A DNA stretch of 64,000 nucleotides from Dehalococcoidia bacterium. Lineage in GTDB: Bacteria; Chloroflexota; Dehalococcoidia; Lucifugimonadales; UBA3495. The stretch is taken from NCBI GenBank assembly GCA_963663945.1, contig OY760687.1:2708555-2772554 (forward strand). Reading direction: 5' to 3'. Each line of letters opens with the position of its first letter. The first letter of the stretch is position 1. Below, piece by piece: positions 8,217-17,662 of this stretch. Under the pieces are notes generated by a model. It made no database searches. It saw nothing but the letters and a program-made list of their open reading frames with translations, and had not been told where the DNA came from. The position numbers were made by a program, and so were the translations under genes.

Positions 8217-8576
8217 ATGGCCGAATTGTACAGCGAACGATGCACCGCCTGCCGCCGCGACTCTCCCCACGTCACTGAGGCAGAGGTCGCCGAATTGCAC
8301 CCGGCAATAAACGATTGGGCATTGATCGACGAAGCCGGCATCCCGAAGCTGGACCGCCAGTTTAAGTTCGGGAATTTCGTCCAGGCGCTGGAATTCACCA
8401 ACGCGCTGGGTGAGTTGGCGGAATCTGAAGGCCACCATCCCCGGCTGACCACCGAATGGGGGCGGGTCAGCGTGACCTGGTGGACGCACAAGATTCGCAA
8501 CCTCCATCGCAACGACTTCGTCATGGCGGCGAAGACGGACCAGTTGTACGCCGAGCATGCGCCGGCGGAAGGGTAA
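8217..8576 (+). CDS. pterin-4-alpha-carbinolamine dehydratase
   Basis: FVQALEFTNALGELAESEGHHPRLTTEWGRVSVTWWTH matches the PCD/DCoH motif (E..HHP). Confidence 0.85.
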   Translation: MAELYSERCTACRRDSPHVTEAEVAELHPAINDWALIDEAGIPKLDRQFKFGNFVQALEFTNALGELAESEGHHPRLTTEWGRVSVTWWTHKIRNLHRNDFVMAAKTDQLYAEHAPAEG

Positions 8577-8610
8577 GCAAGAAAGTCGACCAAATTTTTC
8601 CGAGCGAACG

Positions 8611-9093
8611 ATGGACTCTAACACTCGCAAAGAAAGGTTCTCATTAGCGTACATCGGCGCTGTGGCATCGCACGCAGACTGTGAACTCGTTGAACCGAAG
8701 GTGGACCGCGGCAGTGTCGACGGCATGCTCAAGAGAGCAAGTATCACGGAGCTGATCGGATTCCAAGCTAAGGCAACGTCTCGGGATCTAATTTCCTCGT
8801 CTGCTGATCACATAAATTTCCCGCTGCCCGTAACCGATTATGACAACCTTCGAAACGCAGGGCGTCCATTCATTCTGGTGGTTGTCCTGCTGCCGGACGA
8901 AGAGAGCCAATGGCTATCGCAAAGCAACGAAGAACTTTGCTTACGATATTGCGGGTACTGGCTCTCGCTTGAAGGGCGGTCAGGAGTGACGAACACTAGC
9001 ACCGTGACAGTGCGTCTCCCTTTGGCAAACAGGTTCGGCAGCGTTCAACTCGGTACCTTAATGGACCGGGCCGCATCAGGGTCCTCGCTATGA
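8611..9093 (+). CDS. DUF4365-like PD-(D/E)xK nuclease-fold protein
   Basis: MDSNTRKERFSLAYIGAVASHADCELVEPKVDRGSVDGML-x10-IGFQAKAT gives a D..D...QxK core. The region is low in GC. Start chosen at ATG 8611 inside ORF 8557..9093. Confidence 0.6.
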   Translation: MDSNTRKERFSLAYIGAVASHADCELVEPKVDRGSVDGMLKRASITELIGFQAKATSRDLISSSADHINFPLPVTDYDNLRNAGRPFILVVVLLPDEESQWLSQSNEELCLRYCGYWLSLEGRSGVTNTSTVTVRLPLANRFGSVQLGTLMDRAASGSSL

Positions 9094-10217
9094 TAGTAGA
9101 AATCCGTGACACGGCAGCGTTGTCGTCATTGACCACGCTAAATTTGCGGGCGTATTTGCAGTCACGTGACTGGAACGATGTTGGCCGCTGGGGTAATCGT
9201 GCAACAGTCCACAGCAAAGCGAGTGGAGGCCGCACGTGGGAAATCTTGATACCTTTAAGTGATGCGATCAGTGATTACGCTGAGTTCATGGGAGAAGCGA
9301 TCGGCACTTTAGCTACCGCGGAAGAACGATCCGAACTGGACGTGTTCAATGACGTGACCGGCGCTGGTGCAGATGTCATTCGCATAACCTCTCTCAACGG
9401 CATGGGTAAGGAACCCCTGTCCTTGCGACAAAGTGCGGACATGCTGAGAGATGCGAATGACCTGTTGTCGGCAGCCGCAAGGGCCGTGACCAAACCACAG
9501 GCTGCTTATCGTGGTAGCCTGAGTTCCGAAATCGCTGAATATTTGAGCAGGATCAGGCCACTACCAGGCTATTACCAAGGCTACGGGTTGACCCTGCATT
9601 CCCCGGTTACGCCTGGGATCGGACCACAACCGGACTTAGGCGATGACGATTTGTACGCACCATTCCCAAGACGCGCCACCATTCGTCTTTCAGAAGCATT
9701 GCAGTCAGCGAATTTGGCGGTCAATGAAGCTTCCGCGACAAGTTCGTTGGACACCTTTGAGCAGGCAGTATCGGATGGAGTCAGTGCCAACCTATGCGAT
9801 GCAGTGGCCAAACTGGCCAAAAACGGCCATGGCGTAGAGATCGGCGTTGGTTGGGCGATGGTGCGATCGGCGAAAAGTTCTAGCTCAAATGTGCGTTTCA
9901 CCAACAATTCTGCCGGTATTTTGGAGGAGGCAGCGAGGCATTTCCGCCAGAGATTACCTTCATTCGACGAACGAGTTACAGCCATTGTGGTGAGATTGGA
10001 CAGAGAACCTGACGAATTTGACGGTCGAGCGACCATTAGGCCAATTGGAGATGATCTGCCGCCACGAATGCAGGTCGAATTTGAGCCGGTTTCTTACAAC
10101 GCGGTCATTAGTGCTTTCCAGAATCGCTCATTATTGACTCTGGACGGCGACATCTTTCCGGTCACCAACGGTCACCAACTGCGCAATCCAAGAAATATAG
10201 CAATAACGGCCGAATGA
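9090..10217 (+). CDS. hypothetical protein, 375 aa, partner of the DUF4365-like gene
   Basis: The ATGA overlap with the upstream gene implies translational coupling. The long ORF is in a low-GC region where spurious ORFs are less likely. I recognise no motif. Confidence 0.6.
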   Translation: MIVEIRDTAALSSLTTLNLRAYLQSRDWNDVGRWGNRATVHSKASGGRTWEILIPLSDAISDYAEFMGEAIGTLATAEERSELDVFNDVTGAGADVIRITSLNGMGKEPLSLRQSADMLRDANDLLSAAARAVTKPQAAYRGSLSSEIAEYLSRIRPLPGYYQGYGLTLHSPVTPGIGPQPDLGDDDLYAPFPRRATIRLSEALQSANLAVNEASATSSLDTFEQAVSDGVSANLCDAVAKLAKNGHGVEIGVGWAMVRSAKSSSSNVRFTNNSAGILEEAARHFRQRLPSFDERVTAIVVRLDREPDEFDGRATIRPIGDDLPPRMQVEFEPVSYNAVISAFQNRSLLTLDGDIFPVTNGHQLRNPRNIAITAE

Positions 10218-10246
10218 ATCAGCCAGTTCCGATGGGAGTTACCCGT

Positions 10247-11269
10247 ATGCGAGTTGTTTATTCACTGAGATCCCGTGACCTGAACGCCGTGGCTGCCGAA
10301 GCGGCCTGGGCGGAGTCCATGGGATACGACGGCGTTTCCACTAACGAGACGGCCCACGATCCCTTCCTGCCACTGGCCGTGGCCGCCACGTCGACCAGTC
10401 GCGTAACCCTGGAAACGCACGTCGCAATCGCCTTCCCCAGGTCTCCCATGGTCGTGGCCAACACGGCGCGCGACCTGCAGGACAACAGCGGCGGACGGTT
10501 CCGCCTTGGCCTGGGCACACAGGTGAAAGGCCACATCGAGCGCAGGTTCTCCACCAGGTGGACCGGGTCCGCCGGGCCCCGTCTGCGGGAATACGTCCAA
10601 TCGTTGCACGCCATCTGGAATTGCTGGGACACTGGCAGCAACCTGGAATACGCGGGGGATTTCTACCAGTTCTCCCTGATGACGCCATTTTTCAGTCCGG
10701 GACCCAGCGAGTATCCTCATCCGGAGGTCTACACCGCAGCGGTCAACGGATACAACTGCCTGGTGGCCGGAGAGTGCAGCGACGGACTGATGCTGCACAG
10801 CCTGGTGTCGCCAGAGTACGTGCGGCAGGTTGTACAGCCCAATGTCGCCGAAGGCGCCCGCCGCGCCGGTCGAAACGTCGAGGATGTGTCCGTGGTCGGC
10901 GGGGGATTCATCGTCACCGGGCCCAACCGGGCTGCCATCGCCGAGGCCGCAGAGGAGACCAAACGCCGCATCGCCTTCTACTCGTCTACCCGAACCTACT
11001 TCCCGGTTCTGGAATGTCACGGGTTCGAGGACATCGGCCGCCAGCTGCACGTCATGTCGCGCGAGGGCAGGTGGGACGAAATGGGCGGTCTGGTCCCCGA
11101 CGAGATGCTCAACGCCTTCGCCATCATCGGCGAGTACGATGAAATCCCCGGCATGTTCAAGGAGCGCTATGGCGGGCTGGTGGACGAAATGCACTTCTCC
11201 ATTCAGACCGCTTCCGACGCGGAGCAGGGGCAGCTGCGCCGCATAGTCCGTGACTTGCAGGACCAGTAG
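10247..11269 (+). CDS. LLM-class (luciferase-like) F420/flavin-dependent oxidoreductase
   Basis: MRVVYSL...AESMGYDGVSTNETAHDPFLPLA...GRFRLGLGTQVKGHIERRF matches the luciferase-like monooxygenase fold pattern. Confidence 0.8.
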   Translation: MRVVYSLRSRDLNAVAAEAAWAESMGYDGVSTNETAHDPFLPLAVAATSTSRVTLETHVAIAFPRSPMVVANTARDLQDNSGGRFRLGLGTQVKGHIERRFSTRWTGSAGPRLREYVQSLHAIWNCWDTGSNLEYAGDFYQFSLMTPFFSPGPSEYPHPEVYTAAVNGYNCLVAGECSDGLMLHSLVSPEYVRQVVQPNVAEGARRAGRNVEDVSVVGGGFIVTGPNRAAIAEAAEETKRRIAFYSSTRTYFPVLECHGFEDIGRQLHVMSREGRWDEMGGLVPDEMLNAFAIIGEYDEIPGMFKERYGGLVDEMHFSIQTASDAEQGQLRRIVRDLQDQ

Positions 11270-11278
11270 GGTGTTGCG

Positions 11279-11718
11279 ATGGAAGATGTGCCGCCGGTTT
11301 CTTCTCTGGATCCCGCGCGGTTCAAGCTGGCCAGCGAATCGCACCTGGCCTACAAGCTGAAATGGGAAGCCTGGGAATGGCTTTATTCCGTGGCCCGATG
11401 CCGGTGTATCGGACTCGAAGTGAGGCTGCAGGGCCCTTGGGGCTCGGTGGTCGACGTGGTGGGATTGGGACCATCCAATACGATCTACGTCGTCGAGGTC
11501 AAGGCATCACGGTCGGATTTCGCCCGAGATAACCACACTCAAGCGGACATCGATCGTCTCCAACGGCGCCAGGACGCCCTGAACCGGCGCATTGCATTGA
11601 CCCGCGCCCCCGGTTACCGCTCCTCGAACGGCGACGTCAGTCGGCTGGAACAGGAGGCCGAGCGTTTACGACAACGGCTGGTGATAGACGACAATAAGGA
11701 ATGCCTCTTGCGCCGACT
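11279..11718 (+). pseudogene. 5' part of a PD-(D/E)xK (MmcB/DUF1052-like) gene interrupted by IS21-family element
   Basis: E...VVDVVGLGPSNTIYVVEVKASRSDF is a nuclease core. The reading frame then runs into IS-end sequence and stops at 11743. Confidence 0.6.
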
Positions 11719-11767
11719 ATTCTTGCCGGTTGGGATGGTGTAAATCGTCCGGCACGGAGGTGCCGGA

Positions 11768-13270
11768 TTGATCAAGGACCGACAAGTCAGACTTTTGAGG
11801 CAAAAACGTATGGAAGGAAAAACACAGGAGACGGCGGCCGCCATGTCTGGGATGAGCGTGCGCTCGGCGCGCAAATGGCAGAGTGGCCCGTTGCCGTCGG
11901 AGACCAAACCGGAGCGCTGGTGGCGCACTCGGTCCGATCCCTTCGACGGGGTGTGGGAAGAGGAGATTGAGCCACTGCTGCGGGACGACCCCAAGGGCAA
12001 GCTGAAGGCAACGACGATTATCGAATGGCTGGAGGAGCAGCATCCCGGCCAGTTCAGCACCTCCCAGCTGCGCACGCTGCAACGACGATTACAGGACTGG
12101 CGGGCGCTGAATGGTCCGGACCAGGAGGTGTACTTCCCCCAGGAGCATCCGCCGGGACGGGAGGCCCAGTTTGATTTCACCCACTGCAGCGCCCTGGGGG
12201 TGACCGTCGCCGGTGAGCCCTACCCCCACCTGCTGTTTCAGCTGATCCTCAGCCACTCGGGCTGGCGCTACGCGGAGGTCGCCGCCGGCGAGACCTTCCT
12301 GGCCCTCAAGCAGGGATTACAGAATGCGCTCTGGGCCCTGGGCGGCGTACCGGAGGTGGTGCGTTCCGACAATACCTCTGCTGCCACCCACGAGATGAAA
12401 CGCAGCCGAGGCCGGGCGCTAAACGACAATTACGCCGCCCTGCTGGACCACTACGGTGTCCGATCCACCCGCATCAATCCTGGCAAGAGCCATGAAAACG
12501 GCGTCGCCGAGCACGCCCACTACCGTTTGAAAGACGCCGTGGACCAGGCCCTCATCCTGCGCGGCAGCCGCGATTTCCACACCGCCGACGACTACGCCGG
12601 TTTCGTCCGGAAGATGGTGGAGAAGCGCAATCGCCTGGTGCGGGGGAAGCTGGAGCAGGAAATGGCTTGCCTAAGACCCCTGCCGCCAGCCCCCATGCCG
12701 GAATACGCCAACTACCAGTCCAAGGTGCGCCGGTGGAGTACCATCCAGGTGGCGGGACGCAGCTACAGCGTCCCGTCCCGGCTCATTGGCAAGGTGGTAC
12801 AGATCCGCCTCTATTCCGACCACGTGGAAGTGTACTACAAGGGCCACTTTGTGGAACGAATGGCGCGCGTGCACGGTGATGGGGAAGTAAACGTCAATTA
12901 CCGCCACGTCATCAATTCCCTGGTGCGCAAGCCCGGAGCATTCGCCCGGTACCGGTTCAGGGAGCAGCTGTTTCCCACCTTGCGCTTCCGGCTCACCTAC
13001 GACGCGCTCAGGCAGTGGCGTGGGGAGCGCGCCGACGTGGAGTACGTGCGCATCCTGCACCTGGCGGCCACCACCATGGAGGTCATGGTGGACAGCGCCC
13101 TGTCGCTGCTGCTGGAGACCGGTCAGCCCTTCGACTACGCCGAGGTGCGGGAACTGGCCGAGCCCAGGGTGCCCCAGGCTCCGGTGCTGGTCCTCTCTGG
13201 GAAGCCGGACCTGAAGATCTACGACGGTCTGCTCACGAGCAGTACGGCCATGGTGGGGGTGTGCGCATGA
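11768..13270 (+). CDS. istA: IS21-family transposase IstA
   Basis: N-terminal HTH, then a DDE region (...SDNTSAATHE...), then the long C-terminal part typical of IstA. TTG start is preceded by GGAGG. The stop overlaps the istB start. Confidence 0.9.
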   Translation: MIKDRQVRLLRQKRMEGKTQETAAAMSGMSVRSARKWQSGPLPSETKPERWWRTRSDPFDGVWEEEIEPLLRDDPKGKLKATTIIEWLEEQHPGQFSTSQLRTLQRRLQDWRALNGPDQEVYFPQEHPPGREAQFDFTHCSALGVTVAGEPYPHLLFQLILSHSGWRYAEVAAGETFLALKQGLQNALWALGGVPEVVRSDNTSAATHEMKRSRGRALNDNYAALLDHYGVRSTRINPGKSHENGVAEHAHYRLKDAVDQALILRGSRDFHTADDYAGFVRKMVEKRNRLVRGKLEQEMACLRPLPPAPMPEYANYQSKVRRWSTIQVAGRSYSVPSRLIGKVVQIRLYSDHVEVYYKGHFVERMARVHGDGEVNVNYRHVINSLVRKPGAFARYRFREQLFPTLRFRLTYDALRQWRGERADVEYVRILHLAATTMEVMVDSALSLLLETGQPFDYAEVRELAEPRVPQAPVLVLSGKPDLKIYDGLLTSSTAMVGVCA

Positions 13271-14058
13271 TGGACACCCCCACCAGCGTGATCCAGGAGC
13301 GCATCGGCGAGCTATGCCGCGAATTCAAGCTGCCCACCATGGGCGCTCAGTCGGTGGCCCGTTTCACTGAGGCTGGCCACGGCGAGGCCCTGTCCACCTT
13401 CCTGGAGGTGCTGGAGCAGGAGGCCGAGGATCGCCGCCACCGGCGCATCAACCGGCTGCGTCAGGCGTCCCGGCTGCCCTCGGGCAAGACCTGGGAGACC
13501 TTCGAGCATCACCGGATGCCCCTGACTCTTCGTCAACAGATGGACCATCTGGCCCAGGGCAGTTTCGTGGAACACGGCGTCAACGTGCTGGCCTTCGGGC
13601 TCCCCGGCACCGGCAAGACCCACGCCCTATGCGCTCTGGGCCACCGCCTGGTGGAAGCCGGACACTCCGTCCTCTTCGCTCCAGCCTACCGCCTGGTGCA
13701 GGACCTCCTCGCCGCCAAGCGCGACTTCGACCTGCCCCGACAACTGCGCAAGCTGGACAACTTCGACTTCCTCCTCCTGGACGATCTCGGCTACCTGCCC
13801 CAGGGGGCCGAGGAGTCCGAGGTCCTCTTCACCCTCATCGCCGAACGCTACGAACGCCGGTCCCTGGGCATCACGTCCAACCTGGTCTTCTCCGAGTGGG
13901 AGCGCATCTTCGCCAACCCCATGGCTACCGCCGCAGCGATTGACCGGGTGGTCCACCACTCCGTCATCCTGGAATTCGACGTCCCCAGCTACCGGACTGA
14001 CGCAGCACAGCAACGCGGCGAGACTGCTGCGGCCGAGGAGGTGAACCGGCAAAACTAA
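13267..14058 (+). CDS. istB: IS21-family helper ATPase IstB
   Basis: Walker A GLPGTGKTH, Walker B FLLLDDLGY and ITSN are IstB/DnaC-like AAA+ motifs. Confidence 0.92.
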   Translation: MMDTPTSVIQERIGELCREFKLPTMGAQSVARFTEAGHGEALSTFLEVLEQEAEDRRHRRINRLRQASRLPSGKTWETFEHHRMPLTLRQQMDHLAQGSFVEHGVNVLAFGLPGTGKTHALCALGHRLVEAGHSVLFAPAYRLVQDLLAAKRDFDLPRQLRKLDNFDFLLLDDLGYLPQGAEESEVLFTLIAERYERRSLGITSNLVFSEWERIFANPMATAAAIDRVVHHSVILEFDVPSYRTDAAQQRGETAAAEEVNRQN

Positions 14059-14080
14059 TCGACGATAAATCGGCAAGAAT

Positions 14081-14483
14081 GGTTGACGCGGGACAGCTGG
14101 CCACGGTCTCGACCAAATTCCACGATGCGCGTTTCCTGAGTATCGCCGACTACCACTACATCATGGCGCCTCGAGGCTTGGTGCTGGCGGAGATGGTCCC
14201 ACCCGGCTGGGGTCTCCTGGAGCCGGGTCCCGGCGAAATCGTCGAAGCGCCGGTCAAAGCGATCCGCAAGAACACAGGCATCGTTTCCAACGTGCTGCGC
14301 GCTATCGCGCGCGCGAATACCACCGCCATGATGCGAGCTTACGGCGTCAAATTCGGTTCAGCCGGACCCGTGTTTTCGCATTCCATCGACGGAGCGATGA
14401 GTCCCGACGCAACCCCGGACACAATTGAAAGCACACCTGTTGATTTTGCGACGGAGGAAGAACATGCCAGAAATCACCATTGA
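14081..14483 (+). pseudogene. 3' part of the IS-interrupted MmcB-like PD-(D/E)xK gene
   Basis: VDAGQLATVSTKFHDARFLSIADYHYIMAPRGLVLAEMVPPGWGLLE continues the family C-terminal half. It is in frame with the 5' part when the IS is removed. Confidence 0.55.
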
Positions 14484-15066
14484 TCCAACGAACACAGCGC
14501 TGCTGATTCAAGACATGCAGAACGAGTTGATCAAGGGCGGCGGCATGCTGGTCCAACCTCTGCCGGGATCAGTAATCATTGCCAACAGCGCCCGCCTGCT
14601 GGAGAAAGCCAGGGCGTCAGGCATGGCGGTGATCTACGTGGTGGTGAACCGCAGGCTGGACCGTCGGGACGCTCCGCGGCCGCCTTTCGGAGCGCCGGCC
14701 AGCGCCGCCGATGCGGGTCCCCGGCTCACTGCAGGAACTCACGACGCCGAGGTGGTAGAAGAACTCGCGCCGCGGCCGGAGGATCCGGTCGTAATCAAGC
14801 ACACGACCAGCCCTTTCAACACCACCGACATCGAGGTCTATCTCCGCCGGTTCGGGATAACCACGCTGATCCTCACGGGATATTCGACCACAGGGGTGGT
14901 GGAAGGATCGCTTCGGGACGCCCGAGACAAAGATTATGACTGCATCGTGGTTCGGGATTGCTGCGCGGCCGGCACGGCTACCGAGCATGACGTGTGCATG
15001 GACATCATCTTCCCGCGCATGGCCTGGGTGGCGACGGCGGACGAGGTGATCGCCGCTATCGTTTAG
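14464..15066 (+). CDS. isochorismatase-family cysteine hydrolase
   Basis: TALLIQDMQNE..., ...KHTTSPF... and LILTGYSTTGVVEGSLRDA match the D-K-C catalytic-triad family pattern. Confidence 0.8.
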   Translation: MPEITIDPTNTALLIQDMQNELIKGGGMLVQPLPGSVIIANSARLLEKARASGMAVIYVVVNRRLDRRDAPRPPFGAPASAADAGPRLTAGTHDAEVVEELAPRPEDPVVIKHTTSPFNTTDIEVYLRRFGITTLILTGYSTTGVVEGSLRDARDKDYDCIVVRDCCAAGTATEHDVCMDIIFPRMAWVATADEVIAAIV

Positions 15067-15069
15067 CCA

Positions 15070-15315
15070 CTATGCTCCCGGCCTCGGTGTCCGGTCTTCG
15101 AGCTCGTACCAGTACACTTGGCCGTTATCGATAAGGTTCTGGATCTCCCGGTCGTTACGGATGCTGGCGACGGCCGGGTGGGCAGGATCCCCGGTGAACC
15201 GGGTCAGGTAGGCGGCGTTGCGGATGGCGCAGCCTGTGTCACGCCCGTCCGCGGTGTAAGAGACTTCCATCGCGATGTAATGGGTGGCCCCGTGCCAGTT
15301 GCTCTGCGAGTCCAT
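15070..15315 (-). CDS. hypothetical small protein (possibly truncated)
   Basis: 81-aa ORF squeezed between two genes. No motif recognised. Confidence 0.3.
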   Translation of the reverse strand: MDSQSNWHGATHYIAMEVSYTADGRDTGCAIRNAAYLTRFTGDPAHPAVASIRNDREIQNLIDNGQVYWYELEDRTPRPGA

Positions 15316-15336
15316 TATACGGCGCAGCGCCGCTGG

Positions 15337-16149
15337 CTAGCGGTTCAGCAGCCACCATTCGTCCGTGCCGAGGTTGAAGTCGATGCGTCGGAACCCCTCG
15401 GCGAACGGCACGCCGCAGCGTTCTCCCTGCAGGCGGCAGCCCTCGGTCATGCGGTCCAGCCGTTGTGACCGGGTACGGGCGCTGATCTGGGACGCGTGTT
15501 GGCTCAGGGCTTCGGCCTTGCGGTGGATGTGCTCCTCGGTAATGGAGATGAATGTATCCGGCCGTTCGGAGCCCCAGAGCAGAGCCTCACGAACCTGGTA
15601 CGGCTCCAGTCCTTCTTCTTCGATCTGCTCCGGAAAATCCTGCCAGCTCCAGGCATACGAGAACGCGGCGTCCAACGCCGCCTGACCACTGTGGCGATGG
15701 TCTCGATGGGTGTGCGAGGTGACCCGGTAGGGGTCGATTCCGAAAACAACCTCAGGCTTGTGGCGTCGTATTTCGCGAACCACCTGGCCGCGATAGGTGT
15801 GCGTGTCTTCCAGCTCGCCGTCGCCGTAGCGGAGGAACACCACCTCCGAGACCCCTAGCACATTGGCGGCATTTTGCTGCTCGATCTCACGAGTTGCGGC
15901 CAGGGACTCGGGGGTGAACGAACGGTCGCCGGTGCCCTTGTTGCCGTTCGTGCACATCAGGATGACCACCTTGGTACCGGACTCCGCGATCCACTTGGCC
16001 ATGGTCGCGCCGCAGCCGCCCTCGGCGTCGTCAGGATGGGGCGTGACCACCAGGGCGCTGCGCGGCGCTTCTGTCATCACCCGTGGTTCGGGGGCGTATT
16101 CCTGATTGGGGTATCCCCAGCCGTCAATCCCGTGCGGTCTGCTGGTCAT
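15337..16149 (-). CDS. PIG-L/LmbE-family deacetylase
   Basis: LVVTPHPDDAEGGCG and ...HRDH... metal-binding motifs. Confidence 0.8.
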   Translation of the reverse strand: MTSRPHGIDGWGYPNQEYAPEPRVMTEAPRSALVVTPHPDDAEGGCGATMAKWIAESGTKVVILMCTNGNKGTGDRSFTPESLAATREIEQQNAANVLGVSEVVFLRYGDGELEDTHTYRGQVVREIRRHKPEVVFGIDPYRVTSHTHRDHRHSGQAALDAAFSYAWSWQDFPEQIEEEGLEPYQVREALLWGSERPDTFISITEEHIHRKAEALSQHASQISARTRSQRLDRMTEGCRLQGERCGVPFAEGFRRIDFNLGTDEWWLLNR

Positions 16150-16175
16150 ACTAGCGCTCCGTCGTGCTGGAATGG

Positions 16176-16201
16176 GTAGGGGCGAATGATTATTCGCCCC
16201 T
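16176..16201. repeat. palindromic intergenic repeat, copy 1
   Basis: GTAGGGGCGAATGATTATTCGCCCCT. Confidence 0.85.
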
Positions 16202-16243
16202 GAGTGGTCCGGGTCCGGCTATTGCGGCGCGAACGCGCCAGCG

Positions 16244-17662
16244 CTAGCCGCCGAGGTGGAACACCACCATCTTGAGTTCGGTCATCTCCTCGATGGCGTA
16301 GGCCGGCCCTTCCTTCCCCATCCCGCTGTCCTTGAGACCACCGTAGGGCATCACGTCGGCGCGCCACCCTGGGGAGGAATTGATATGCAGGTTGCCCGAA
16401 TGGACTTCCTGGGCAAATTTCATTGCCCAGTCCACGTTCTGGGTGAAAATACCTGCCGACAGCCCAAAGCGCGTATCGTTGGCCTTGGCGATGGCGTCGT
16501 CGATGTCGTCGAACGCGCTGACAGCGACGGCCGGACCAAACAATTCCTCGCGGGAAATCAGCATTTCCGGACGCGCATCCGCCACCACGGTGGCCGTGTG
16601 CATTGTCCCTTCGCGCCCACCGCCGGCGATGACCCGGGCGCCCTGACTCACGGCCTCGGCAATCCAGCCCTCGACACGCTCAGCGTCGGTTTGGCGGATC
16701 ATCGGGCCCATCTTGACGTCTTCGTCAAAGGGATTGCCGACGCTGAATTCCTGGGTGGGTTTCACCAACGCGTCCAGCAGATCGGCGTATATGGTGCGGG
16801 CGGCGAAGACGCGCTGCGTGGAGATGCAGACCTGGCCGGCGTTGGCAAATCCGCTCGACACAGTGGCGGCCGCCACTTTCTCAATGTCGGCGTCGGACAT
16901 GATGATCAGGGGGCTGTTGGACCCCAGTTCCATCGTCACCTTCTTGATGCCAGCATTGCGGCAAATCTGGTCGCCGACCTCCATGCTGCCGGTGAAAGTG
17001 ATCTTGCGCACATCGGACGACCCGGTGATGGCGTCCCCGATCTCCGCGCCGGAACCGGTGATGGTCTGGATGGCTTCTCCGGGCAGGCCGGCTTCCAGGA
17101 GGATCTCGGTCAGCTTCAAAGCGGACAGCGGAGTGTCGCCGGCGGGCTTGAGGATGACGGCGTTGCCGCCAGCCAGGGCGGGCCCCACCTTGTGACAAAC
17201 CAGGTTGAGCGGGAAATTGAACGGAGCGATCGCAGCCACAACGCCCACTGGTACCCGAATGGTGAACCCGAACTGATTGACGACCCCGGGAGCCGAGTCC
17301 AACGGGACCGTTTCGCCGTGCAGGCGCTTGGCTTCTTCAGCCGACAGCGTGATGGTCTGGATGGCGCGCTGGACCTCAACGCGACCCTCGGCAATGACCT
17401 TGCCCTCTTCCCGAGTTATGGTCTCCGCCAGGTCGTCAGCGCGTTCTTCCATGAGGTCGGCGGCGCGCTTGAGGATCGTATAGCGACGGTGAGAAGGCAG
17501 CTTGGCCATCACCGCGGCGCCGCGCACGGCACTGGCGATAGCGGCCTGAACATCGGCGGCGGAACCGCGCGGGACGGTGTCGAACGCGGACTGATCAAAG
17601 GGATTGATGACTGGCATCTTGTCATCGCGGTCGACCCACTCGCCGCAGATGTACATACGCAT
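16244..17662 (-). CDS. NAD(P)-dependent aldehyde dehydrogenase family protein
   Basis: FTGS, MELGSNSP, GQVCIS and EELFGP are ALDH signatures. Start moved to ATG 17662 (MRMYICGEWVD). Confidence 0.9.
   Translation of the reverse strand: MRMYICGEWVDRDDKMPVINPFDQSAFDTVPRGSAADVQAAIASAVRGAAVMAKLPSHRRYTILKRAADLMEERADDLAETITREEGKVIAEGRVEVQRAIQTITLSAEEAKRLHGETVPLDSAPGVVNQFGFTIRVPVGVVAAIAPFNFPLNLVCHKVGPALAGGNAVILKPAGDTPLSALKLTEILLEAGLPGEAIQTITGSGAEIGDAITGSSDVRKITFTGSMEVGDQICRNAGIKKVTMELGSNSPLIIMSDADIEKVAAATVSSGFANAGQVCISTQRVFAARTIYADLLDALVKPTQEFSVGNPFDEDVKMGPMIRQTDAERVEGWIAEAVSQGARVIAGGGREGTMHTATVVADARPEMLISREELFGPAVAVSAFDDIDDAIAKANDTRFGLSAGIFTQNVDWAMKFAQEVHSGNLHINSSPGWRADVMPYGGLKDSGMGKEGPAYAIEEMTELKMVVFHLGG

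What the first reader, a model, noticed from the sequence alone, without database searches (positions are those of the whole stretch)
8611..10217. Low-GC two-gene cassette: DUF4365-like PD-(D/E)xK nuclease plus a 375-aa protein with no recognisable domain (candidate uncharacterised defence / toxin-antitoxin module)
Two translationally coupled genes (ATGA overlap at 9090-9093) are wedged between a pterin dehydratase gene and an LLM oxidoreductase gene.

Hand counts show a GC drop. Line 8581-8640 gives 27/60 G+C and line 9241-9300 gives 25/60. The neighbouring gene gives 38/60 at 10321-10380. This drop is the usual mark of horizontally acquired DNA.

Gene 1 (161 aa from ATG 8611) shows ...KERFSLAYIGAVASHADCELVEPKVDRGSVDGML-x10-IGFQAKAT... 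This is a D...D...QxK restriction-endonuclease-like core of the DUF4365 type. I know this domain mainly as an effector module in prokaryotic conflict systems.

Gene 2 (375 aa) has no TM segment, no signal peptide, no NTPase motif and no motif I can place.

A small nuclease effector coupled to a larger unknown partner is the architecture of many abortive-infection and TA-like systems. I cannot map this pair to any named system. About 1 kb downstream lies a second PD-(D/E)xK gene hit by an IS21 element, which is consistent with a small variable island.
Basis: partly seen in the sequence, partly recalled or inferred. Interest (0 to 1): 0.75.

Follow-up and report, generated by a model that had tools for sequence, protein, structure and literature searches.

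The report
Untested nuclease–sensor phage-defence gene pair
This is a real, conserved two-gene cassette (a small DNA-cutting enzyme plus a partner that probably binds nucleic acid) that a defence-gene catalogue already lists as an untested candidate anti-virus system, so it is worth an experiment but is not a new discovery.

Summary
Genes A (8611-9093, 160 aa) and B (9090-10217, 375 aa) overlap by ATGA, sit between a pterin dehydratase and an LLM oxidoreductase gene, and have the lowest GC in the window (0.53 vs 0.63).

A is a full-length DUF4365/DREN PD-(D/E)xK nuclease with an invariant D37/Q52/K54. B has no Pfam domain. However, both proteins match PADLOC's unpublished candidate system PDC-M02 (E 4e-44 and 5e-98), so the pair is already catalogued, though I found no experimental test.

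New here:
- B models confidently (pLDDT 92) as an N-terminal domain, a helical insert and a C-terminal OB fold.
- A ~180-aa short form on cyanobacterial plasmids keeps only the N-domain and the OB fold.
- The pair stays together across phyla, plasmids and prophages.
- In about a quarter of genomes it is embedded in type I R-M operons between hsdS and hsdR.

- The cassette is not a recent acquisition. It occupies the same slot in related SAR202 genomes and is under purifying selection.
- The IS21-hit neighbour is a conserved syntenic gene, not island cargo.

Most likely B senses nucleic acid and switches on the A nuclease. This is inferred, not shown.

The parts
8611..9093 (+). Gene A: a 160-aa stand-alone DUF4365 / DREN-type PD-(D/E)xK nuclease (PADLOC PDC-M02A, phrog_27905)
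   Evidence: Pfam PF14280 E 6.5e-16, covering profile positions 1-139 of 139. PADLOC PDC-M02A E 3.6e-44. PHROGs phrog_27905 E 6e-15. A homologue lies directly upstream of B in 63 of 77 assessable genome loci.
8719..8772 (+). Predicted catalytic core of A: D37 (8719-8721), Q52 (8764-8766), K54 (8770-8772)
   Evidence: Translation was verified. D37, Q52 and K54 are invariant in a 20-sequence alignment that reaches 24-31% identity and are at least 98% conserved in 62 sequences. They correspond to the experimentally required D41/Q60/K62 of NbaSPARDA DREN (bioRxiv 10.1101/2023.06.08.544223; PMC12205087) and Q62/K64 of TmuRE (PMC10810196).
9090..9093 (+). ATGA start/stop overlap (translational coupling of A and B)
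   Evidence: Read directly from the sequence. The same 4-nt overlap is seen in 33 of 56 cleanly called genome pairs and in plasmid, prophage and viral-contig copies.
9090..10217 (+). Gene B: a 375-aa partner protein (PADLOC PDC-M02B, phrog_27927) with no Pfam family
   Evidence: PADLOC PDC-M02B E 5.3e-98, full length. No Pfam hit for B or for 106 relatives. The family has 6351 representative clusters at E<=1e-3, nearly all 370-390 aa. AF2 model: pLDDT 91.7, pTM 0.84.
9090..9368 (+). B N-terminal alpha/beta domain (aa 1-93), part of the conserved core and a candidate A-coupling domain
   Evidence: Secondary structure comes from the model. This domain is retained in the ~180-aa short partners of A on cyanobacterial plasmids (hhalign probability 98.6%, E 8.8e-16). 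PDC-M02B models hit the short form at 1-92. The coupling role is inferred.
9369..9962 (+). B middle module (aa 94-291): mostly helical, contains the near-invariant GVSANLC motif, and is absent from short forms
   Evidence: Model secondary structure and conserved columns. The short partners lack this region. No structural match was found in PDB.
9963..10214 (+). B C-terminal OB-fold domain (aa 292-375)
   Evidence: The topology is beta1-beta2-beta3-alpha-beta4-beta5 at pLDDT 89-96. Nearly all top Foldseek PDB hits are 85-100-residue OB folds (RPA, Stn1/Ten1, Teb1, HIN-200, SSB, aaRS N-domains), with probability up to 0.99 but weak E-values of 0.05-0.5. The domain is retained in short forms (hhalign probability 97.6%, E 2.7e-12).
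8577..10246 (.). Low-GC insert between the Pterin_4a stop and the LLM start (the whole cassette with its 34-nt and 29-nt spacers)
   Evidence: GC is 0.51-0.55 here against 0.61-0.68 in the flanks. B has the lowest GC of 62 ORFs. More distant relatives have an empty site, with Pterin_4a and LLM only 30-80 nt apart. No flanking repeats, promoter or terminator were found above chance.

Best explanation
The pair is an instance of a widespread two-gene anti-phage / anti-mobile-element defence module, the PADLOC candidate PDC-M02.

Gene A is the effector. It is a free-standing DREN-type (DUF4365) PD-(D/E)xK nuclease.

Gene B is the non-catalytic sensor and regulator. Its conserved core is an N-terminal domain plus a C-terminal OB fold.

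Proposed mechanism, by analogy with SPARDA (there the isolated DREN domain is monomeric and inactive, and is switched on only when the sensor brings four copies together):
1. A and B are made in fixed proportion through translational coupling.
2. They form a latent complex through B's N-terminal domain.
3. B's OB fold binds a nucleic-acid species that appears during infection, for example single-stranded or otherwise abnormal DNA.
4. Several A subunits are thereby brought together.
5. The assembled nuclease degrades DNA indiscriminately, which stops the invader at the cost of growth arrest or death of the infected cell.

What is shown here: gene structure, family membership, catalytic residues, the fold of B, conservation of the pair, the defence-type contexts, and purifying selection.

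What is inferred: complex formation, the ligand, oligomerisation-dependent activation, the abortive outcome, and any anti-phage activity at all.
For: Membership and effector:
- Both proteins match PADLOC PDC-M02A/B over their full length.
- A is a complete DUF4365. Its invariant D37/Q52/K54 equals the mutationally validated DREN active site (10.1101/2023.06.08.544223; PMC12205087; PMC10810196).

Obligate pairing:
- A lies directly upstream on the same strand, usually with the ATGA overlap, in 63 of 77 assessable species-level genomes.
- The same arrangement is found on Gluconobacter and Phaeobacter plasmids, in M. abscessus prophages, in 5 of 7 IMG/VR contigs, and in Leptospira phage LE1, where B is only 14% identical but matches structurally over its full length.

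B as a nucleic-acid binder:
- The model is confident and has a C-terminal OB fold.
- The short partners keep exactly the N-domain and the OB fold.

Defence context:
- 17 of 80 loci have a type I HsdR directly downstream, 20 have HsdS upstream, and 15 have both. In these the operon reads hsdM-hsdS-A-B-hsdR.
- In S. meliloti the pair is on an integrase island next to HmaB/HmaC with an embedded PtuA.
- A TIR-like gene lies directly upstream in 7 loci.

Accessory behaviour with maintained function:
- The pair's GC is below that of its flanks in 71 of 78 loci.
- Relatives with an empty site exist.
- The pair evolves faster than its flanks, yet omega is 0.06-0.08.

Precedents:
- DUF4365 nucleases act as defence effectors in SPARDA and in the validated integron system Divona.
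- TgvAB is a two-gene nuclease system embedded in a type I R-M operon that also occurs alone (PMC11411939).
Against: - No experiment exists. PDC-M02 appears in no searchable paper, PDC-x systems are described as unpublished candidates, and at least two other PDC candidates showed no activity when tested.
- In this window there is no neighbouring defence gene. The cassette sits among housekeeping genes, as it does in R. centenum.
- The OB-fold assignment rests on topology and on consistent but weak Foldseek E-values of 0.05-0.5.
- B's N-terminal and middle domains have no structural analogue, so a catalytic or other role for B cannot be excluded.
- The A family profile does not reach the SPARDA structures by sequence, so transferring the tetramerisation mechanism is an analogy only.
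- The apparent preferential loss of A (11 loci against 2) is confounded, because the loci were ascertained through B.
Confidence: 0.5

Rival explanations
1. The pair is a two-subunit, methyltransferase-less restriction endonuclease (type IV-like or otherwise foreign-DNA-specific). B recognises a feature of invading DNA, such as a modification, and directs A to cut that DNA directly. The cell survives. The pair complements the type I R-M system it is often embedded in.
For: - The pair is embedded between hsdS and hsdR in 15-22 of 80 loci.
- TgvAB is an exact positional precedent: a two-gene modification-dependent system inside a type I R-M operon that is found 17 times more often on its own (PMC11411939).
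- A has a restriction-endonuclease-like fold.
- The pair contains no methyltransferase.
- B has a nucleic-acid-binding fold.
Against: - B shows none of the known modified-base readers (SRA, EVE/YTH, DUF262, winged helix) by Pfam or Foldseek.
- OB folds typically bind single-stranded nucleic acid.
- The only biochemically characterised DUF4365 nucleases act collaterally, not in a site- or target-directed way (10.1101/2023.06.08.544223; PMC10810196).
- A lacks any DNA-recognition domain of its own.
Confidence: 0.2
2. The pair is a toxin-antitoxin or addiction module. A is a constitutively toxic nuclease and B is its protein antitoxin. The main role is to stabilise plasmids, prophages and islands rather than to sense phage.
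For: - The pair is a tightly coupled two-gene operon.
- It is found on plasmids next to ParA, recombinase and RelE/ParE genes and at prophage ends.
- A is degraded while B stays intact in 11 loci, against 2 for the reverse.
- A single fused A-B protein, P0170, exists.
Against: - B is large (375 aa), highly conserved and has a multi-domain fold including an OB fold. It has no HTH or RHH autoregulatory domain.
- An isolated DREN domain is inactive, not toxic, in SPARDA (PMC12205087).
- The pair is stably kept among chromosomal housekeeping genes for long periods under purifying selection, without any mobile-element context.
- Embedding in type I R-M operons is not typical of simple addiction modules.
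- The A-loss asymmetry is biased by ascertaining loci through B.
Confidence: 0.12
3. The pair has a DNA-transaction function for mobile elements or the host, such as junction resolution or recombination-intermediate processing. This would use a Hjc-like nuclease plus an SSB-like OB-fold protein and would not be an immune function.
For: - DREN topology resembles the Hjc/Hje Holliday-junction resolvases and TnsA (10.1101/2023.06.08.544223).
- B carries an OB fold like RPA and SSB.
- The short form lies next to tyrosine recombinase and ParA on cyanobacterial plasmids.
- In this window the neighbours are ordinary metabolic genes.
Against: - Distribution is patchy, with empty sites in close relatives.
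- The pair has a persistent compositional anomaly and evolves faster than its flanks.
- It associates repeatedly with R-M, Hma, Septu and TIR genes.
- It is not linked to replication or repair operons in any sampled locus.
Confidence: 0.08

Closest known systems
PADLOC-DB candidate system PDC-M02 (PDC-M02A + PDC-M02B)
   Same: Both window proteins match its HMMs over their full length (E 3.6e-44 and 5.3e-98). The genes are adjacent, co-directional and in A-then-B order. The M. abscessus prophage pair and the cyanobacterial pairs match the same models.
   Different: Nothing differs, so this is a member. PDC-M02 is only a catalogue entry. PDC-x systems are described as unpublished candidates (PMC11811056), and no searchable paper names PDC-M02 or reports a phenotype, structure or mechanism.
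SPARDA (short prokaryotic Argonaute + DREN-APAZ)
   Same: The effector family is the same (DUF4365/DREN), with the same D...QxK catalytic triad. Both are two-gene systems in which a non-nuclease partner senses nucleic acid. The effector is expected to be inert until assembled (10.1101/2023.06.08.544223; PMC12205087; PMC10810196).
   Different: - A has no APAZ domain; it is 160 aa of nuclease only.
- The partner is not an Argonaute. B has no MID/PIWI by Pfam and no Ago hit by Foldseek against PDB.
- There is no evidence of guide-dependent targeting.
- The sensor here is an OB-fold protein of a family absent from Pfam.
Divona (single-protein anti-phage system from Vibrio chromosomal integrons)
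   Same: It is an experimentally supported defence protein that uses an N-terminal DUF4365 nuclease joined to a different, non-nuclease domain (bioRxiv 10.1101/2024.07.02.601686).
   Different: Divona is a single polypeptide with a crr6 (PF08847) C-terminal domain. Here the nuclease and its partner are separate proteins, and the partner has an N-domain + helical + OB architecture.
[quoted passage not shown]
   Same: Both are two-gene nuclease systems. Both genes are required. TgvAB is embedded inside a type I R-M operon and is also common as a stand-alone pair (PMC11411939). The genomic behaviour matches that of A-B.
   Different: The protein families are unrelated (DUF262 NTPase and DUF1524 His-Me nuclease). 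TgvAB is NTP-dependent and modification-dependent. A-B has no NTPase.
PrrC / EcoprrI (anticodon nuclease guarded by a type I R-M enzyme)
   Same: PrrC is a latent nuclease genetically linked to a type I R-M system. It is silenced by that system and activated by a phage anti-restriction factor (PMC2610378). This is a possible model for the hsd-embedded copies of A-B. That prrC lies between hsdS and hsdR is my own recollection and was not checked in a paper here.
   Different: PrrC is one protein (an ABC-ATPase plus a tRNA anticodon nuclease) that targets tRNA-Lys. A-B is a DNase-type fold plus an OB-fold partner. Most A-B copies, including this one, are not next to any hsd genes.

Membership tests
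PADLOC PDC-M02 candidate defence system | A protein matching a PDC-M02A HMM | tested here: met
   PDLC04297 E 3.6e-44, residues 1-158 against profile 1-163 of 165
PADLOC PDC-M02 candidate defence system | A protein matching a PDC-M02B HMM | tested here: met
   PDLC04298 E 5.3e-98, residues 1-374 against profile 1-375 of 380
PADLOC PDC-M02 candidate defence system | The two genes are adjacent and co-directional | tested here: met
   4-nt ATGA overlap at 9090-9093 on the + strand
PADLOC PDC-M02 candidate defence system | Confers protection against phage or plasmids | not testable with these tools
   No published test was found. This needs a plaque or transformation assay.
DUF4365 / DREN PD-(D/E)xK nuclease (Pfam PF14280) | Pfam HMM match above the gathering score | tested here: met
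   59.1 bits against a cutoff of 24.3, covering profile positions 1-139 of 139
DUF4365 / DREN PD-(D/E)xK nuclease (Pfam PF14280) | Catalytic D...QxK residues present | tested here: met
   D37, Q52 and K54 are present and invariant across the family. They correspond to D41/Q60/K62 of NbaDREN.
DUF4365 / DREN PD-(D/E)xK nuclease (Pfam PF14280) | Metal-dependent nuclease activity | not testable with these tools
   This needs biochemistry.
SPARDA / short pAgo system | APAZ domain fused to the effector | tested here: not met
   A is 160 aa and is entirely covered by DUF4365, with nothing C-terminal to it. The only Aga-type PADLOC hit is weak and confined to the nuclease region (E 9.2e-5, residues 39-103).
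SPARDA / short pAgo system | Short Argonaute (MID-PIWI) partner | tested here: not met
   B has no Pfam hit. The Foldseek PDB search returned no Argonaute among its listed top 50 hits and nothing at E<=1e-3.
Type II toxin-antitoxin module | Small antitoxin with a DNA-binding (HTH/RHH/AbrB) autoregulatory domain | tested here: not met
   B is 375 aa, has no such Pfam domain, and its fold is N-domain + helical + OB.
Type II toxin-antitoxin module | The toxin is toxic alone and is neutralised by the antitoxin | not testable with these tools
   This needs expression tests. The indirect hint is that A decays more often than B (11 against 2), but that count is biased by how the loci were found.
Type IV (modification-dependent) restriction enzyme | Nuclease present without a cognate methyltransferase | tested here: met
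   There is no MTase in the pair or next to it in the window.
Type IV (modification-dependent) restriction enzyme | Recognisable modified-base reader (SRA, EVE/YTH, DUF262, Mrr-N winged helix) | tested here: not met
   None was found by Pfam in 106 members, and none appears among the listed Foldseek PDB hits. An unrecognised reader cannot be excluded.
Type I R-M-embedded accessory gene (PrrC/TgvAB-like position) | Located inside an hsd operon between hsdS and hsdR | tested here: not met
   This is not the case in the window, where the neighbours are Pterin_4a and LLM. It is met in 15 of 80 related loci, and 22 of 80 have at least one hsd neighbour.

The most novel reading that the evidence does not exclude
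PDC-M02 is an Argonaute-independent way of controlling the DREN collateral nuclease. A guide-free OB-fold sensor (B), from a protein family with no Pfam entry and no solved structural relative, would assemble on an infection-specific nucleic acid and oligomerise free-standing DREN subunits. That would define a new sensing principle for a very widespread system (thousands of sequence clusters). The minimal N-domain + OB form (~180 aa) would be its core. The copies embedded in type I R-M operons might act as a back-up that fires when restriction fails.
Probability: 0.3. Interest if true: 0.7.

Novelty: new member of a known kind. Interest (0 to 1): 0.45.

Why it matters
If the system works as proposed, it would show that the DREN nuclease, currently known as the Argonaute-coupled effector of SPARDA and used for nucleic-acid diagnostics, is also deployed with a much simpler, guide-free OB-fold sensor.

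The system is very common: 6351 representative clusters for B alone. It spans at least Chloroflexota, Proteobacteria, Actinobacteria, Cyanobacteria and Spirochaetes, plus their plasmids and prophages.

It would turn a bare catalogue label (PDC-M02) into a testable mechanism, with defined catalytic residues, a domain map of the partner and a natural minimal variant.

For this particular window the practical message is more modest. The cassette is a correctly spotted but already catalogued candidate defence locus. It is an old resident of a SAR202 lineage, not a fresh island.

Tried and rejected
1. The first structure prediction of B, using 52 close homologues, gave pLDDT 58 and was discarded. 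A second prediction with 106 sequences at 28-70% identity gave 91.7.
2. Sequence searches of PDB with B profiles (A1, A2), with A alone and with an A profile (A3) found nothing meaningful. In particular they did not reach the SPARDA chains.
3. NCBIfam gave nothing for either protein.
4. Flanking direct or inverted repeats as insertion scars: only short chance-level matches.
5. Promoter and terminator scan around the cassette: no more hits than in shuffled sequence.
6. The idea that the Pterin_4a-LLM slot is a defence hotspot was rejected. Other occupants are host-GC multi-GAF/HisKA sensor genes or their remnants.
7. The idea that B's C-terminal part is a swappable sensor module was rejected. 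The short partners keep both the N-domain and the OB fold and lack only the middle.
8. The idea that the 101-aa Nodularia phage protein (a Foldseek hit) is a phage copy of B's N-domain could not be tested. A tblastn of the short partner against phages did not hit it.
9. A bulk PADLOC scan of 130 near-neighbour ORFs was swamped by redundant type I R-M models. It added no other families beyond the cluster analysis. I did not run the far-neighbour control.
10. The literature search for 'PDC-M02' returned zero papers.
11. The A-versus-B decay asymmetry was considered as evidence that A is toxic. I down-weighted it because the loci were found through B.
Full report
**1.

The ORF listing shows gene A at 8611-9093 (+) and gene B at 9090-10217 (+). 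A is 160 aa. A longer ORF from ATG 8557 exists, but homologues align from residue 1 of the 8611 start. B is 375 aa. The ATGA overlap is visible in the sequence.

- Upstream is Pterin_4a (8217-8576, E 1.5e-27).
- Downstream is a luciferase-like monooxygenase (E 3e-54). Its real start is 10247, 29 nt after the B stop.

The GC drop is real:
- It is 0.51-0.55 across the cassette and 0.61-0.68 beside it.
- B has the lowest GC of all 62 gene-sized ORFs in the window: 0.527 against 0.634 ± 0.026, with GC3 0.53 against about 0.73.

**2. What the two proteins are**

A is a complete DUF4365 domain (PF14280, 59 bits against a cutoff of 24). B has no Pfam hit, and neither do any of 106 diverse relatives.

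Both proteins hit PADLOC-DB models of one candidate system over their full length: PDC-M02A (E 3.6e-44) and PDC-M02B (E 5.3e-98). They also hit two PHROG families of unknown function, phrog_27905 and phrog_27927. So the pair is already catalogued.

The literature describes PDC-x entries as unpublished candidate systems (PMC11811056). 'PDC-M02' occurs in no searchable paper. The PDC candidates that have been tested are different ones (PMC12881386 and PMC12409345).

**3. The nuclease**

In a 62-sequence family alignment, and in a 20-sequence alignment that reaches 24-31% identity (prophage and plasmid copies), D37, Q52 and K54 are invariant and D32 nearly so. The coordinates are 8719-8721, 8764-8766 and 8770-8772.

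This is the D...QxK signature whose mutation abolishes activity in characterised DUF4365 nucleases:
- SPARDA's DREN domain: D41/Q60/K62 (bioRxiv 10.1101/2023.06.08.544223; PMC12205087).
- TmuRE: Q62/K64 (PMC10810196).

A has no APAZ extension.

**4. The partner**

A first AF2 run with close homologues failed (pLDDT 58). I then queried with a distant proteobacterial member and built a 106-sequence alignment (A2). The model from that alignment reached pLDDT 91.7 and pTM 0.84.

The model has three parts:
- an N-terminal alpha/beta domain (aa 1-~100);
- a mostly helical middle (~112-290) carrying the near-invariant GVSANLC motif;
- a C-terminal beta1-beta2-beta3-alpha-beta4-beta5 barrel (291-373).

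Foldseek against PDB found nothing at E<=1e-3. Almost all top hits are 85-100-residue OB folds (RPA, Stn1/Ten1, Teb1, HIN-200, SSB, aaRS N-domains), with probability up to 0.99. Together with the topology, that supports a C-terminal OB fold. The other two domains have no solved analogue.

In BFVD the best hit is full length: Leptospira phage LE1 Q6NE06 (E 1e-19, TM 0.63, 14% identity). I later found that this protein (gp37) sits directly downstream of an A-type DUF4365 gene (gp38) in LE1. That independently corroborates both the model and the pairing.

**5. The pair is an obligate unit**

Of 80 species-level genome loci found through B, 77 can be assessed:
- 63 have an intact A directly upstream on the same strand.
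- 11 have A degraded or absent with B intact.
- 2 have B degraded with A intact.
- 1 has both degraded.

Because the loci were found through B, this asymmetry is biased and I give it little weight.

The same arrangement is found elsewhere:
- on Gluconobacter and Phaeobacter plasmids;
- as genes 1-2 of M. abscessus prophages;
- in 5 of 7 IMG/VR contigs.

An exhaustive profile search finds 6351 representative clusters for B at E<=1e-3, nearly all 370-390 aa.

**6. A minimal form**

Searching plasmids with an A protein gave 48 records, against 16 for B. The extra records fall into two groups:
- truncated Bradyrhizobium copies next to transposases;
- about 17 cyanobacterial plasmids where A is followed, with the same 4-nt overlap, by a protein of 175-180 aa.

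hhalign shows that this short partner equals B residues 1-93 (probability 98.6%, E 9e-16) plus B residues 292-372 (probability 97.6%, E 3e-12). PDC-M02B HMMs hit it in exactly these two stretches.

So the conserved core that accompanies the nuclease is the N-domain plus the OB fold. The helical middle is an optional insertion.

**7. Context elsewhere**

Clustering of flanking ORFs, followed by Pfam and PADLOC scans, gives:
- HsdR (T1RH-like_C type) immediately downstream of B in 17 loci;
- HsdS immediately upstream of A in 20 loci;
- both in 15 loci, so the operon reads hsdM-(HEPN)-hsdS-A-B-hsdR with overlapping or near-zero gaps.

In S. meliloti the pair lies on an integrase island beside HmaB/HmaC with an embedded PtuA. 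A TIR-like gene precedes A in 7 loci. These are defence-gene contexts.

TgvAB is an unrelated two-gene nuclease system that shows the same behaviour: it is embedded in a type I R-M operon but is commoner alone (PMC11411939). PrrC, which is genetically linked to a type I R-M system and silenced by it (PMC2610378), is the classical guard precedent.

In R. centenum, and in this window, the pair stands alone among ordinary genes.

**8. History at this locus**

The two closest B homologues (70% identity) occupy the same slot, within L28-Rpe-ArgH-AP_endonuc_2-Pterin_4a-[A-B]-LLM-253/257-aa gene-isochorismatase-...-PIG-L.

| Comparison | Flanking genes | A and B |
|---|---|---|
| Protein identity, window vs L090/L091 | 85-94% | 69-70% |
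| GC3 in all three genomes | 0.74-0.85 | 0.48-0.58 |
| omega, L090 vs L091 | 0.05-0.07 | A 0.077, B 0.064 |
| dN, window vs L090/L091 | 0.05-0.10 | 0.20-0.23 (dS saturated) |

(the LLM row used a wrong start and was redone.)

More distant relatives have Pterin_4a and LLM only 30-80 nt apart (an empty site), or carry a host-GC GAF/HisKA sensor gene in the slot.

Across 78 loci the pair's GC is below that of its flanks in 71, by 5.9 points on average, and it barely tracks host GC (r = 0.26).

My reading: the cassette is accessory DNA of foreign composition. It was acquired before these SAR202 lineages split, or was replaced by allelic exchange in one of them. It evolves fast but is functionally maintained. 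It is not a recent insertion.

The IS21-interrupted gene downstream is the conserved syntenic 253-257-aa gene. It has no Pfam or PADLOC hit, so it does not indicate a variable island.

**9. Mechanism**

Shown here: an intact DREN-type active site, an OB-fold partner, obligate coupling, defence-type contexts and purifying selection.

Established elsewhere: DREN alone is monomeric and inactive. It becomes a collateral DNase/RNase when the sensor assembles four copies (PMC12205087). DUF4365 nucleases serve as effectors in SPARDA and in Divona.

Inferred: B holds A through its N-domain, binds an infection-derived nucleic acid through its OB fold, clusters the A subunits and thereby switches on DNA degradation.

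I put about 0.7 on a defence role of some kind and about 0.35-0.4 on this specific activation scheme (0.5 for the combined statement as scored). The rivals are direct type IV-like restriction (0.2), a TA/addiction module (0.12) and a recombination or DNA-processing function (0.08).

**10. Comparison with known systems, and novelty**

The pair is a member of PDC-M02: every sequence-level criterion is met, and only the phenotype is untested. It is not SPARDA, because it has no APAZ and no Argonaute. The SPARDA authors list other DREN fusions (TIR, NTPase-WD40, DUF2057, TPR) but not this pair.

The instance in this window is therefore a new member of a known, catalogued kind. This analysis adds the domain map of B, the minimal short form, the type I R-M embedding statistics and the locus history.

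Interest is moderate. The system is very widespread and uncharacterised, with a clear experimental path. But it has already been flagged by a defence-gene database, and its architecture (a sensor plus a nuclease effector) is conventional.

Noticed in passing
window 11279-14483 (IS at about 11710-14089; istA 11768-13270, istB about 13270-14058): An IS21-family element with 22-nt terminal inverted repeats interrupts a gene whose two halves rejoin in frame (11279-11709 and 14090-14483). Intact 253-257-aa orthologues sit at the same syntenic position in L090 and L091 and have no Pfam or PADLOC hit. The PD-(D/E)xK reading rests only on a VDVVGL...VVEVK motif and a weak MmcB-like hit (E 0.078).
   Followed up: partly
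L099, L101, L106, L109, L111, L112, L115, L121 (between Pterin_4a and LLM); remnants in L117 and L118: In more distant SAR202-like contigs, the slot that holds A-B in the window is occupied by a multi-GAF / HisKA-motif sensor-kinase-like gene of 380-670 aa at host GC. In some contigs it is decayed to a 0.5-kb remnant. In others the slot is empty.
   Followed up: partly
L004, L011, L015, L020, L021, L050, L059 (about 1.5-3 kb upstream of the B start, directly before A): A conserved ~328-aa protein with a TIR-like / nucleoside 2-deoxyribosyltransferase-like C-terminal region lies immediately upstream of A in 7 loci (PADLOC 'Effector TIR' E 7e-8; Pfam Nuc_deoxyrib_tr E 2e-4). It could be a separate defence gene or an optional third component.
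   Followed up: no
L003, L004, L021, L025, L037, L050, L065 (inside the hsd operons): A 143-aa NTase_sub_bind (HEPN-type) gene sits between hsdM and hsdS in the same type I R-M operons that carry A-B. These operons therefore hold more than one embedded cargo.
   Followed up: no
P0170 (550 aa, 1761-bp Logan contig); P0264 (752 aa, two B-like stretches): P0170 is a single ORF that fuses an A-type DUF4365 to a full B. P0264 is a protein of double B length. If they are genuine rather than sequencing errors, they support physical association of A and B and hint at B self-association.
   Followed up: no
window 8611-9093 (A residues 23, 47, 64-65, 87): The window's A carries D, E and F at positions where at least 95% of 62 family members have G23, P47 and R87. 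It also has a 2-aa insertion (S64-A65) that 98% of members lack. The L090 copy shares these features, so they are clade-specific derived states in an otherwise intact protein.
   Followed up: partly
BFVD A0A482MK90 (Nodularia phage vB_NspS-kac65v162, 101 aa): A small cyanophage protein matches about 89 residues of the B model (E 1.6e-4, TM 0.71 on the target, 22% identity). I could not tell whether it matches the N-domain or the OB fold. A phage-encoded copy of one B domain would be a candidate decoy or anti-defence protein.
   Followed up: partly
L084-L086 (S. meliloti; 9299-17140, minus strand): An Hma-type system (HmaB methylase, HmaC ATPase, SNF2/NOV_C helicase) with an embedded PtuA plus a 214-aa gene (Septu-like) lies directly beside the A-B pair, on an island that starts with a tyrosine integrase.
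   Followed up: partly
L081 (Mycobacterium phage prophi102-2, 398-2160; also prophiGD54-1): The pair forms genes 1 and 2 at the extreme left end of two M. abscessus prophages, a few genes upstream of a WXG-motif / polymorphic-toxin cassette. This is a typical location for prophage cargo genes.
   Followed up: partly
H23-H37 (Bradyrhizobium plasmids): Fifteen Bradyrhizobium plasmid records carry the same A-type DUF4365 truncated at residue 121. In several records the match overlaps or abuts a transposase gene. The B query gave no hit in these records.
   Followed up: no
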